From: the human T2T-CHM13v2.0 reference genome, Homo sapiens
Strand: one strand, 5' to 3'
Assembly (NCBI RefSeq): GCF_009914755.1
Contig: NC_060926.1
Length of the DNA: 64,000 nucleotides
Under the pieces are notes generated by a model. That model saw only the letters and a program-made list of their open reading frames with translations. It was not told the origin of the DNA and searched no databases. The position numbers and the translations under genes are program-made. Each line of letters starts with the position of its first letter. Within the stretch, counting starts at the first letter, position 1. This document shows, piece by piece, positions 13,636-16,960 of the stretch.

Positions 13636-13927
13636 CATTCAACAACAGAAAAATACAAACTATTTTTAATGAGAAAAATAGTATTGCTTTTTTTAATAGT
13701 AATTTTTTTAAATTTTATCATTATTATACTTTAAGTTTTAGGGTACATGTGCACAACCTGCAGGTTTGTTACATATGTATACATGTGCCATGCTGGTGTG
13801 CTGCACCCATTAACTTGTCATTTAGCATTACGTATATCTCCTAAGGCTATCCCTCTCCCCGCCCCCCACCCCACAACAGTCTCCGGTGTGTGACGTTCCC
13901 CTTCCTGTGTCCATGTGTTCTCATTGT

Positions 13928-16768
13928 TCAATTCCCACCTATGAGTGAGAATATGCCGCGCTTGGTTTTTTGTCCTTGTGATAGTTTGCTGAGAGTGATG
14001 GTTTCCAGTTTCATCCATGTCCCTACAAAGGACGTGAACTCATCATTTTTTATGGTTGCATAGTATTCCATGGTGCATATGTGCCACATTTTCTTAATCC
14101 AGTCTATCGTTGTTGGACATTTATGTTGGTTCCAAGTCTTTGCTATTGTGAATAGTGCCGCTATAAAATACATGTGCATGTGTCTTTATAGCAGCATGAT
14201 TTATAATCCTTTGGGTATATACCCAGTAATGGGATGGCTGGGTCAAATGGTATTTCTAGTTCTAGATCCCTGAGGAATTGCCACACGGACTTCCACAATG
14301 GTTGAACTAGTTTACAGTCCCACCAACAGTGTAAAAGTGTTCCTATTTCTCCACATCCTCTCCAGCACCTGTTGTTTCCTGACTTTTTAATGATTGCCAT
14401 TCTAACTGGTGTGAGATGGTATCTCATTGTGGTTTTGATTTGCATTTCTCTGATGGCCAGTGATGGTGAGCATTTTTTCATGTGTTTTTTGGCTGCGTAA
14501 ATGTCTTCTTTTGAGAAGTGTATGTTCATATCCTTTGCCCACTTTTGGATGGGGTTGTTTGTTTCTTTCTTGTAAATTTGTTTGAGTTCATTGTAGATTC
14601 TGGATATTAGCCCTTTGTCAGATGAGTAGGTTGCAAAAATTTTCTCCCATTCTGTAGGTTGCCTGTTCACTCTGATGGTAGTCTCTTTTGCTGTGCAGAA
14701 GCTCTTTAGTTTAATTAGATCCCATTTGTCAATTTTGGCTTTTGTTGCCATTGCTTTTGGTGTTTTACACATGAAGTCCTTGCCCATGCCTATGTCCTGA
14801 ATGGTATTGCCTAGGTTTTCTTCTAGGGTTTTTATGGTTTTAGGGCTAACATCTAAGACTTTAATCCATCTTGAATTAATTTTTGTATAAGGTGTAAGGA
14901 AGGGATCCAGTTTCAGCTTTCTACATATGGCTAGCCAGTTTTCCCAGCACCATTTATTAAATAAGGAATCCTTTCCCCATTGCTGTTTTTCTCAGGTTTG
15001 TCAAAGACCACATAGTTGTAGATATGCAGCATTATTTCTGAGGGCTCTGCTCTGTTCCATTGGTCTATATCTCTGTTTTGGTACCAGTACCATGCTGTTT
15101 TGGTTACTGTGGCCTTGTACTATAGTTTGAAGTCAAGTAGCATGATGCCTCCAGCTTCATTCTTTTGGCTTAGGATTGACTTGGCGATGCAGGCTCTTTT
15201 TTGGTTCCATATGAACTTTAAAGTAGTTTTTTCCAATTCTGTGAAGAAAGTCATTGGTAGGTTGATGGGGATGGCATTGAATCTATAAATTACCTTGGGC
15301 AGTATGGCCATTTTCATGATGTTGATTCTTCCTACCCATGAGCATGGAATGTTCTTCCATTTGTTTGTATCCTCTTTTATTTCATTGAGCAGTGGTTTGT
15401 AGTTCTCCTTGAAGAGGTCCTTCACGTCCCTTGTAAGTTGGATTCCTAGGTATTTTATTCTCTTTGAAGCAATTGCAAATGGGAGTTCACTCATGATTTG
15501 GCTCTCGGTTTGTCTGTTATTGGTATATAAGAATGCTTGTGATTTTTGTACATTGATTTTGTATCCTGAGACTTTGCTGAAGTTGCTTATCAGCTTAAGG
15601 AGATTTTGGGCTGAGATGATGGGGTTTTCTAGATATACAATCATGTCATCTGCAAACAGGGACAATTTGACTTCCTCTTTTCCTAATTGAATACCCTTTA
15701 TTTCCTTCTCCTGCCTGATTGCCCTGGCCAGAACTTCCAACACTATGTTGAATAGGAGTGGTGAGAGGGGGCATCCCTGTCTTGTGCCTGTTTTCAAAGG
15801 GAATGCTTCCAGTTTTTGCCATTCAGTATGATATTGGCTGTGGGTTTGTCATAGATAGCTCTTATTATTTTGAGATATGACCCATCAATACCTAATTTAT
15901 TGAGAGTTTTTAGCATGAAGCGTTGTTGAATTTTGTCAAAGGCCTTTTCTGCATCTATTGAGATAATCATGTTGTCTTTGTCTTTGGTTCTGTTTATATG
16001 CTGGATTACATTTATTGATTTGCATTTGTTGAACCAGCCTTGCATCCCAGGGATGAAGCCCACTTGATCATAGTGGATAGGCTTTTTGATGTGCTGCTGG
16101 ATTTGGTTTGCCAGTATTTTATTGAGGATTTTTGCATTGATGTTCATCAAGGATATTGGTCTAAAATTCTCTTTTTTGGTTGTGTCTTTGCCAGGCTTTG
16201 GTATCATGATGATACTGGCCTCATAAAATGAGTTAGGGAGGATTCCCTCTTTTTCTATTGATTGGAATAGTTTCAGAAGGAATGGTACCAGCTCCTCTTT
16301 GTACCTCTGGTAGAACTTGGCTATGAATCCATCTGGTCCTGGACTTTTTTTGGTTGGTAAGCTATTGATTATTGCCTCAATTTCAGAGCCTGTTATTGGT
16401 CTATTCAGAGATTCAACTTCTTCCTGGTTTAGTCTTGGGAGGATGTATGTATTGAGGAATTTATCCATTTCTTCTAGATTTTCTAGTTTATTTGCATAGA
16501 GGTGTTCATAGTATTCTCTGATGGTAGTTTGTATTTCTGTGGGATCGGTGGTGATATCCCCTTTATGATTTTTTATTGCATCTATTTGATTCTTCTCTCT
16601 TTTCTTCTTTATTAGCCTTGTTAGTGGTCTATCAATTTTGTTGATCTTTCCAAGAAACCAGCTCCTGGATTCATTAATTTTTTGAAGGGTTTTTTGTGTC
16701 TCTATTTCCTTCAGTTCTGCTCTGATTTTAGTTATTTCTTGCCTTCTGCTAGCTTTTGAATGTGTTTG
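13928..16768 (-). pseudogene. L1 ORF2 C-terminal remnant (Z region, reverse transcriptase, C-terminal domain), disrupted
   Basis: ORF-track fragments with [47 protein letters not shown] and FSLIGGN*. Lesions: frameshift ~15820, TAC>TAG stop ~15120, probable frameshifts ~14983 and ~14168. Confidence 0.92.
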
Positions 16769-16780
16769 GGCGCCTGCCAT
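15794..16780 (-). CDS. Chimeric ORF: L1 ORF0 start (MAGA) fused in frame to ORF2 from ~Q329, 328 aa; expression unknown
   Basis: ATG at 16780 in strong Kozak context (TTGGCA ATG G); translates [18 protein letters not shown]...[11 protein letters not shown]. The frame is seen directly; translation in vivo is not shown. Confidence 0.4.
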
Positions 16781-16960
16781 TGCCAAGTTAGTTGTTTGAT
16801 TAGGTACACAAAGCCTCCCAGAAGCTCGAACTGGGTGGAGCCCAACACAGCTCAAGGAGGCCTGCCTGCCTCTGTAGGCTCCACCTCTGGGGGCAGGACA
16901 CAGACAAACAAAAAGACAGCAGTAACCTCTACAGACTTAAACGTCCCTCTCTGACAGCTT
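16769..16960 (-). promoter_or_regulatory. L1 antisense promoter region (5'UTR nt ~440-630), facing the ORF2 3' half
   Basis: GGGCGCCTGCCATTGCC...CTGGGTGGAGCCC..CAGCTCAAGGAGGCC...CAGACAAACAAAAAGAC is the L1 5'UTR segment known to carry antisense-promoter activity. The RUNX motif ACCACA appears changed to AACACA at ~16844-16849. Confidence 0.6.

What the first reader, a model, noticed from the sequence alone, without database searches (positions are those of the whole stretch)
13688..16960. Inversion junction builds an antisense-promoter ORF0-ORF2 (endonuclease-less) fusion cassette
Seen: on the minus strand the junction reads CTTGGCA ATG GCA GGC GCC CAA ACA CAT TCA ([14 protein letters not shown]), open for 328 aa (16780-15794), and continues through the rest of ORF2, the 3'UTR and the poly(A) tail. 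Established: primate L1 ORF0 begins MAGAPPP at this Kozak ATG and is transcribed from the 5'UTR antisense promoter, whose start-site region lies just upstream and is retained here. The ORF0-internal splice donors lie downstream of the ATG and were removed by the truncation. Inference: if the source ORF2 was intact, this locus at insertion encoded about 951 aa (MAGA plus ORF2 ~329-1275: PIP box, Z, RT and C-terminal domains, no endonuclease) as a first ORF. That would bypass the inefficient bicistronic ORF2 translation and would be a general way for 5'-inverted L1s to express free RT. Today a 1-bp deletion at ~15820 ends the frame before the FADD motif, at least three more lesions follow, and the RUNX motif looks mutated. 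The present product would keep the PIP box (QTTIREYY) but be RT-dead. The frame match could be chance.
Basis: partly seen in the sequence, partly recalled or inferred. Interest (0 to 1): 0.8.

Follow-up and report, generated by a model that had tools for sequence, protein, structure and literature searches.

The report
Inverted L1 with chance ORF0-ORF2 fusion
This is one old, decayed LINE-1 insertion whose front half was flipped as it inserted, and the flip happened to join the start codon of the small antisense gene ORF0 in frame to the back two-thirds of ORF2; nothing suggests the resulting reading frame was ever used.

Summary
On the minus strand, ATG GCA GGC GCC | CAA ACA... opens a 328-codon frame (15794-16780). 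Residues 5-323 align without gaps to LINE-1 ORF2p 329-647.

The whole 13690-19412 block is a single twin-primed (5'-inverted) L1. It is flanked by a 15-19 bp target-site duplication, has a poly(A) at one end only, and its two arms abut in L1 coordinates (ORF2 codon 327 | 329).

The ATG is the ORF0 start (L1 nt 452-450). The inverted arm stops 12 nt into ORF0, at about nt 441.

The four lesions in the ORF2 remainder (three 1-bp deletions, one stop) are private to this copy (0 of 17 relatives). A 951-codon endonuclease-less fusion frame at insertion is therefore plausible.

Nothing supports function:
- Private changes in the fusion ORF are 18 non-synonymous to 4 synonymous, versus 268:114 in 17 ordinary relatives (p = 0.34).
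- Private divergence equals that of the relatives.
- The junction is unique in the genome.
- No transcript is annotated.
- The RUNX-like core is mutated.
- The reported main antisense start region (about nt 400) is deleted.

An in-frame join has a one-in-three chance. Verdict: an ordinary twin-primed L1 with a chance fusion; the functional reading remains speculative.

The parts
13671..13689 (.). Left copy of the target-site duplication, GA[G/T]AAAAATAGTATT[G/T]CTT
   Evidence: A 15-mer with 1 mismatch, or a 16-mer with 1 mismatch shifted by 3 nt, is shared with 19413-19431. Together that makes 19 bp with 2 mismatches.
13690..13927 (-). L1 3'UTR and short degenerate A-rich tail of the 3' arm
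   Evidence: Sequence read. It aligns end to end with 17 of 20 fetched relatives.
13928..16768 (-). ORF2 codons 329-1275 plus the stop codon, in four frame pieces. It is broken by 1-bp deletions after 15819, 14985 and 14168, and by a stop at 15122-15120.
   Evidence: PDB alignments to ORF2p 329-647, 646-877 and 923-1195. Frame map. All lesions are private, 0 of 17 relatives.
15794..16780 (-). The 328-codon fusion ORF. It comprises the 4 ORF0 codons (MAGA), then ORF2p 329 to about 645, then 7 out-of-frame codons and a stop.
16769..16780 (-). Remnant of ORF0: the start codon plus 3 codons, corresponding to L1 nt about 452-441. The inversion junction lies between 16769 and 16768, with a 1-nt (C) ambiguity.
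   Evidence: 6 of 7 other copies with the same 19-mer continue MAGAPP... from this ATG. PMC10619931 reports A451G as an M1T change in ORF0.
16781..17098 (-). Retained part of the L1 5'UTR antisense-promoter region, lying upstream of the ORF0 ATG. It carries 10 private changes in the 330 nt examined (16769-17098), including G>T at 16845 in the RUNX-like core. The YY1-type GCCAT over the ATG is kept. The only upstream ATG is at 16987.
   Evidence: YY1 site at nt 448-453 from PMC4908685.
16769..19412 (+). Inverted 5' arm. It holds the L1 5'UTR from about nt 441 onward, an ORF1 remnant (up to 18378) with 5 internal stops in the frame carrying its Pfam-matched end, and ORF2 codons 1-327 (18442-19412) with one frameshift near 18772 and one stop at 19254-19256. 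The first ~440 nt of the 5'UTR are absent; that this part holds the sense promoter is recalled.
   Evidence: Pfam hits Tnp_22_dsRBD, Transposase_22 and Exo_endo_phos.
19413..19431 (.). Right copy of the target-site duplication. Its first two bases (GA) could equally be L1 bases, giving 2 nt of microhomology.

Best explanation
The block 13690-19412 is a single L1 insertion, probably on the order of 10-20 million years old, made by twin priming.

Inferred mechanism: the first cDNA was primed from the poly(A) tail. It gave the minus-strand arm, which runs from ORF2 codon 329 to the tail. The second cDNA was primed inside the same RNA at about codon 327-328 and ran nearly to the 5' end of the RNA, stopping at about L1 nt 441. 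It gave the inverted plus-strand arm.

Joining the two cDNA ends placed the ORF0 start codon and three further codons directly before ORF2 codon 329. The join fell in frame, which has a one-in-three chance.

Since then the element has decayed like any other dead L1. The present 328-codon ORF is what is left before the first of four private lesions. It lacks the catalytic FADD motif and has no demonstrated expression or function.

Shown: the anatomy, the junction, the ORF0 identity, the private lesions and the neutral substitution pattern. Inferred: the twin-priming steps themselves and the age.
For: - Both arms come from one L1 and abut in L1 coordinates. In relative L009 the 5' arm ends at subject nt 3147 and the 3' arm starts at nt 3151. 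In protein terms this is ORF2p Q327 | Q329.
- A 15-19 bp direct repeat flanks the whole block. A poly(A) occurs only at the 3' arm's end, and the inverted arm ends directly on the repeat.
- These are the hallmarks described for 5'-inverted L1: about 30% of human- and chimpanzee-specific L1 insertions, TSD mode 14-16 bp, microhomologies at the junctions (PMC2912911, passages).
- The ATG is the ORF0 start. 6 of 7 other copies read MAGAPP..., and the start codon includes nt 451 (PMC10619931).
- Neutral decay. There are 68 private substitutions in 3069 nt, against a median of 65 in 17 relatives. The private N:S ratio in the fusion ORF is 18:4 against 268:114 pooled relatives, Fisher p = 0.34. In the rest of ORF2 it is 24:13 against 477:153, p = 0.17.
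- Lesion load is ordinary. This copy has 3 frameshifting indels and 1 stop, against 1-8 and 1-6 in the relatives.
- The junction 33-mer occurs once in the 3.1-Gb assembly at up to 3 mismatches.
- No gene model lies in or within 100 kb of the locus (hub annotation).
Against: - The fusion ORF's open run is long for its age. It is 324 codons from codon 329, against 0-578 in 17 relatives (about 59 median). Only 2 of 17 are equally lesion-free over codons 329-643.
- The ATG has a strong context (G at -3, G at +4). No other ATG lies within 207 nt upstream.
- The YY1-type motif at nt 448-453 is retained.
- A comparable fragment, starting at residue 348, is expressible and active together with an endonuclease fragment (PMC4889948).

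A short period of expression right after insertion is therefore not excluded by sequence alone.
Confidence: 0.85

Rival explanations
1. At birth the locus was a working, monocistronic gene. The retained antisense promoter transcribed across the junction, and the ORF0 start codon initiated a 951-residue endonuclease-less ORF2p (MAGA plus residues 329-1275). This supplied reverse transcriptase without the inefficient ORF2 re-initiation. It was later lost to mutation.
For: - All four lesions are private to this copy, 0 of 17 relatives.
- L1 cis preference (recalled, no call) implies that the inserted RNA encoded a working ORF2p.
- The ATG has a strong context and there is no upstream ATG within 207 nt.
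- The promoter is described as lying upstream of ORF0 (PMC4982230, passage).
- The fragment starting at residue 348 is expressed and functions with an EN fragment. Alone it gave none in the untagged test and a small residual, possibly EN-independent, signal in the tagged one (PMC4889948).
Against: - There is no sign of past constraint: N:S is 18:4 in the fusion ORF.
- The primary antisense start is reported at about nt 400 (PMC4908685). That lies in the deleted part.
- The promoter stretch now has 10 private changes in 330 nt, including the RUNX-like core.
- The locus sits in a gene desert with no transcript model (hub annotation).
- An in-frame join is expected by chance in one of three such junctions.
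Confidence: 0.1
2. The present 328-residue product (MAGA, the ORF2p linker and Z region with the PCNA motif, and half of the RT domain) is made today and has a role of its own, for example as a PCNA-binding or dominant-negative fragment.
For: - The ORF is intact, with a strong start context.
- The PCNA-motif YY is present.
- The stretch is lesion-free in only 3 of 18 copies, counting this one.
Against: - 18 of 22 private coding changes are non-synonymous.
- The protein ends in 7 out-of-frame residues in the middle of the RT domain, at RVT_1 profile position 107 of 205.
- No transcript is annotated.
- The long ORF is the reason the locus was picked, so its length is not independent evidence.
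Confidence: 0.02
3. The structure arose from two events rather than twin priming: either two independent L1 insertions head to head, or a later inversion by recombination.
For: Nothing specific. Twin priming itself is still called a proposed model in PMC10760644 (passage).
Against: - The arms abut to within 1-3 nt in L1 coordinates.
- The inverted arm has no poly(A) of its own and ends on the target-site duplication.
- One duplication flanks the whole block.
- Both arms are similarly diverged from the same relatives: 93-95% for the 3' arm and 91-94% for the 5' arm.
Confidence: 0.03

Closest known systems
5'-inverted L1 insertions made by twin priming (Ostertag and Kazazian 2001, not held here; surveyed by Kojima 2010, PMC2912911)
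   Same: Two arms of one L1 lie in opposite orientation. One target-site duplication flanks both, there is one poly(A), and the breakpoints adjoin. Possible microhomology is 1 nt at the inversion junction and 2 nt at the 5' junction.
   Different: The inverted arm is unusually long at 2644 nt. It ends inside ORF0, 12 nt after its start codon, so an ORF0 start is fused in frame to ORF2.
ORF0 and ORF0 fusion proteins of primate L1 (Denli et al. 2015, not held; quoted in PMC4859970, PMC4908685 and PMC13517631)
   Same: [quoted passage not shown]
   Different: Known fusions arise by RNA splicing from two donors inside ORF0 to exons of neighbouring genes. Here only 4 codons of ORF0 remain and both donors are gone. 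The fusion is at the DNA level, to L1's own ORF2.
Engineered N-terminally truncated ORF2p (delta348RTCys of the BAR assay, PMC4889948)
   Same: It is an endonuclease-less fragment starting shortly before the Z domain and running to the C-terminus. This is the product the locus could have encoded at insertion.
   Different: That fragment is an expression construct of a modern, codon-optimised ORF2. The genomic frame here is broken four times, and its present product stops before the catalytic motif.

Membership tests
Twin-primed (5'-inverted) L1 insertion | Two segments of the same L1 in opposite orientation, with the 5' segment inverted | tested here: met
   The plus arm 16769-19412 runs from the 5'UTR to ORF2 codon 327. 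The minus arm 16768-13690 runs from ORF2 codon 329 to the tail.
Twin-primed (5'-inverted) L1 insertion | One target-site duplication flanking the whole structure, of typical length | tested here: met
   A 15-19 bp repeat lies at 13671-13689 and 19413-19431. The typical mode is 14-16 bp (PMC2912911).
Twin-primed (5'-inverted) L1 insertion | The internal ends of the two arms adjoin in L1 coordinates, with only a small deletion or duplication | tested here: met
   Only 1-3 nt of L1 are unaccounted for between the arms. In L009 these are subject nt 3148-3150.
Twin-primed (5'-inverted) L1 insertion | A poly(A) only at the end of the non-inverted arm | tested here: met
   An A-rich tail abuts the left duplication. 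The inverted arm ends on the right duplication without a tail.
Twin-primed (5'-inverted) L1 insertion | Microhomology at the 5' junction and at the inversion junction | tested here: inconclusive
   There are 2 possible nt (GA) at 19413-19414 and 1 possible nt (C) at 16768/16769. Stretches this short are also expected by chance.
L1 ORF0 | Start codon on the antisense strand at L1 nt 452-450 with a strong context | tested here: met
   The same 19-mer occurs in 21 exact genomic places, counting this one. 6 of 7 fetched copies read MAGAPP... from it. Position taken from PMC10619931.
L1 ORF0 | An open frame of about 70 codons containing two splice donors | tested here: not met
   Only 4 codons (12 nt) remain, and they contain no GT. 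The 70-aa length and the two donors are from PMC4859970.
L1 ORF0 | Transcription from the 5'UTR antisense promoter | not testable with these tools
   No expression data are on hand. The stretch upstream of the ATG is retained, but the reported primary start region at about nt 400 is deleted.
Active LINE-1 ORF2p reverse transcriptase | A complete RT domain, including the catalytic FADD motif, in one frame | tested here: not met
   The fusion ORF covers RVT_1 profile positions 1-107 of 205. FADD lies in the next frame, after a 1-bp deletion.

The most novel reading that the evidence does not exclude
5'-inverted L1 insertions whose inverted arm ends inside ORF0 are born as cap-dependent, monocistronic genes. 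In these, the antisense promoter and the ORF0 start codon drive an endonuclease-less ORF2p. This locus is a fossil of such a gene. Young or polymorphic members of the class could be a source of free L1 reverse transcriptase in cells where the antisense promoter is active.
Probability: 0.08. Interest if true: 0.55.

Novelty: new member of a known kind. Interest (0 to 1): 0.18.

Why it matters
As it stands, this is one more dead, twin-primed L1 in a gene desert. The value of the work is to show that the striking ORF is explained by known insertion mechanics plus a one-in-three coincidence.

The idea behind the finding would matter only if young or polymorphic examples exist and are expressed. 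The idea is that an inversion can put ORF2 directly behind the ORF0 start codon and the antisense promoter. That would be a route to ORF2p reverse transcriptase that does not depend on the bicistronic L1 mRNA. It would bear on where cytoplasmic L1 cDNA and trans-mobilisation activity come from. That question needs a genome-wide and population-wide census, not this locus.

Tried and rejected
- MAFFT alignment of the two flanks mis-registered the target-site duplication. A direct scan found it.
- Two independent insertions, or a later inversion, were rejected. The arms abut in L1 coordinates and share one duplication.
- Duplication of the cassette elsewhere was rejected. The 33-mer junction has 1 hit, which is the locus itself.
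- My first synonymous/non-synonymous table and the whole-region stop counts used a wrong register for the last frame piece. I recomputed with frames set by the three deletions and cite only those numbers. The fusion-ORF piece was not affected. The indel counts do not depend on frame.
- A genome-wide census of inverted L1s with a junction inside ORF0 was considered and dropped. The own-genome pattern search lists at most 100 places and cannot express a junction to an arbitrary L1 position. A sample of a few hundred ORF0-bearing copies would be expected to hold too few cases for a frame test. Among the copies I did fetch, none is cut inside ORF0: 7 of 7 continue into ORF0-like sequence from the ATG, and 17 of the 17 relatives examined carry the L1 5' start motif upstream.
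- Denli 2015, Speek 2001, Matlik 2006 and Ostertag & Kazazian 2001 are not held. ORF0 and promoter facts therefore come from later papers that quote them.
- PMC8044218, bioRxiv 10.1101/2023.01.03.522582 and PMC7746726 gave no start-site or ORF0 coordinates.
- Earlier findings of this scan were not open.
- No paper on an ORF0-ORF2 fusion made by inversion appeared in the listings for 'twin priming' + 'antisense promoter' + 'inverted' (12 papers) or 'ORF0' + 'twin priming' (12 papers). Only titles and abstract starts were seen for most of these.
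Full report
**Observation**

The minus strand reads cttggca ATG GCA GGC GCC CAA ACA CAT TCA, with the ATG at 16780-16778. The ORF 15794..16780 is 328 codons, [14 protein letters not shown]....

Residues 5-323 align without a gap to residues 329-647 of solved human LINE-1 ORF2p (8uw3_A, E = 8e-189). Pfam finds the first half of RVT_1, profile positions 1-107 of 205.

**Anatomy**

The plus strand from 16769 carries, in order:
- the rest of an L1 5'UTR;
- an ORF1 remnant (Pfam Transposase_22 and Tnp_22_dsRBD);
- ORF2 codons 1-327 (Pfam Exo_endo_phos), ending ...LKELEKQ at 19412.

The minus strand from 16768 carries ORF2 codons 329-1275, the 3'UTR and a short degenerate A-rich tail down to about 13690.

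A direct repeat, GA[G/T]AAAAATAGTATT[G/T]CTT, lies at 13671-13689 and 19413-19431. It sits exactly outside both ends.

In full-length relatives the two arms abut. In L009 the 5' arm ends at subject nt 3147 and the 3' arm starts at nt 3151. Only 1-3 nt of L1 are therefore missing at the inversion point.

The inverted arm has no tail of its own.

These features define a 5'-inverted L1 made by twin priming. That class makes up about 30% of human- and chimpanzee-specific L1 insertions, with a typical duplication of 14-16 bp and junction microhomologies (PMC2912911, passages). PMC10760644 describes it as a proposed model (passage).

Two separate insertions, or a later inversion, would not give adjoining breakpoints, a single duplication and a tail-less inverted arm.

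**The start codon**

The 19-mer around the ATG occurs 387 times in the assembly at up to 1 mismatch. Of these, 21 are exact, counting this locus.

In the 7 other copies fetched, the frame from this ATG reads MAGAPP... in 6 and MAGALRP in 1. It stays open for 60 or more codons in 4 of the 7 and for 16-46 codons in the other three.

Papers quoting Denli et al. 2015 describe ORF0 as follows:
- downstream of the antisense promoter;
- with two internal splice donors (PMC4859970, PMC4908685, PMC13517631 and PMC4982230; passages).

PMC10619931 gives A451G as an M1T change of ORF0 (passage). The ATG is therefore L1 nt 452-450, and the 12 retained bases end at about nt 441.

Counting from a recalled L1 5' start motif in 17 relatives gives 437-444 for the breakpoint. 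That motif itself starts a few bases into the element, which is also recalled. The two estimates agree.

After GGCGCC the relatives continue CCTCC..., whereas this locus continues CAAACA. The junction therefore has at most 1 nt of microhomology. The 12 retained bases hold no GT, so both ORF0 donors are gone.

**A sub-family**

This copy belongs to a sub-family of at least 92 copies. They share an unusual spelling, CCTAATCAAACAACTAAC, just upstream of the ATG.

I fetched 20 of them. For the ORF2 analysis I used the 17 that cover the 3' arm end to end and dropped L014, L016 and L026, which are partial. For the promoter analysis I used the 17 whose alignment starts at the first base of the 5' arm and dropped L011, L020 and L026.

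**State of ORF2**

The remainder is in four frame pieces. The breaks are:
- a 1-bp deletion after 15819 (ORF2p 645-646);
- a stop at 15122-15120 (codon 878);
- a 1-bp deletion after 14985 (about codon 922);
- a 1-bp deletion after 14168 (about codon 1196).

None of the four is shared by any of the 17 relatives. They arose after insertion.

At insertion the frame could have run for MAGA plus ORF2p 329-1275, which is 951 codons.

The present ORF stops before FADD, which sits in the next frame. It keeps the PCNA motif: YY 414-415 falls at fusion residues 90-91.

**Was it ever under constraint?**

- This copy has 68 private substitutions in 3069 nt (2.2%). The 17 relatives have 47-111, median 65.
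- In the fusion ORF, the private changes are 18 non-synonymous and 4 synonymous. The relatives pooled give 268:114 over the same columns (Fisher p = 0.34).
- In the rest of ORF2 the figures are 24:13 against 477:153 (p = 0.17). My first table had one piece in the wrong register; one search replaces it.
- This copy has 3 frameshifting indels against 1-8 in the relatives, and 1 in-frame stop against 1-6.

One result leans the other way. The open run from codon 329 is 324 codons here. In the 17 relatives it is 0-578 codons with a median of about 59. Only 2 of 17 are lesion-free over codons 329-643.

That places this copy in roughly the top sixth. But the long ORF is why the locus was flagged, and the substitution pattern shows no purifying selection.

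At a recalled rate of 0.1-0.2% per million years, 2.2% suggests an age on the order of 10-20 million years. This is a rough inference.

**The promoter question**

Everything upstream of the ATG is retained, and the ATG context is strong (G at -3, G at +4). The nearest upstream ATG on the minus strand is at 16987, 207 nt away, and it opens a 16-codon frame. The YY1-type GCCAT at nt 448-453 is kept because it overlaps the ATG.

Against this:
- The 330 nt examined carry 10 private changes. One is the G>T at 16845 that turns the RUNX-like TGTGGT into TGTGTT.

If most antisense transcripts start near nt 400, they start downstream of the ORF0 ATG, in the part that is deleted here. EST 5' ends are often incomplete, and PMC4982230 places the promoter upstream of ORF0. 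The primary papers that map the start sites were not available.

The hub's annotation lists no gene, transcript model or functional element at the locus or within 100 kb.

**Precedent and novelty**

A fragment of ORF2p starting at residue 348 is expressed in HeLa cells. It supports Alu retrotransposition when an endonuclease-bearing fragment is supplied separately. On its own it gave none in the first, untagged test and only a small residual signal in the tagged one (PMC4889948, sections read). The protein the locus could have encoded at birth is therefore biochemically plausible.

ORF0 fusions are known, but they arise by splicing to host exons.

I found no paper describing an ORF0-ORF2 fusion made by inversion. 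The listings searched were, with 12 papers each, mostly seen as titles and abstract starts only. The junction itself is unique in the assembly.

**What was not done**

No expression, ribosome or proteome data and no other primate genomes were available. A genome-wide census of in-frame versus out-of-frame junctions could not be built with the pattern tool. None of the other copies checked at that end is cut inside ORF0.

**Verdict**

The functional part is unsupported, and the neutral substitution pattern makes it unlikely for this locus.

The locus is an ordinary twin-primed L1 whose junction happens to be in frame. The general idea is testable elsewhere and is kept as the novel case, at low probability.

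Noticed in passing
window 16788-16804 (minus strand); 92 places in the assembly: A small L1 sub-family of at least 92 copies carries the spelling CCTAATCAAACAACTAAC just upstream of the ORF0 ATG, where other copies read CCTACTCAAGC. Within it, the base before GGCAATGG is most often C. The T here therefore looks like CpG decay, and it leaves the -3 G of the start context untouched.
   Followed up: partly
window 16769-17360 (+): The inverted arm lacks L1 nt 1 to about 440. That this part holds the sense-promoter core is recalled. The ORF1 and endonuclease remnants on the plus strand therefore have no L1 promoter of their own. ORF1 has 5 internal stops in the frame carrying its Pfam-matched end.
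   Followed up: partly
L002-L008 (other L1 copies): The ORF0-frame length differs widely between old copies: 16, 24, 46, 64, 87, and at least 110 codons in two copies. The 70-residue ORF0 quoted for young L1 is therefore not a fixed length across older sub-families.
   Followed up: no
window 49875-49978 (-): The hub's annotation lists a U13 small nucleolar RNA-like locus (LOC124906171, cmsearch model) in an otherwise gene-free 264-kb neighbourhood. I did not examine it.
   Followed up: no
window 13637-13670: NCBI's repeat mask starts 34 nt outside the left target-site duplication, in A/T-rich flank. The mask boundary therefore does not mark the L1 end.
   Followed up: no
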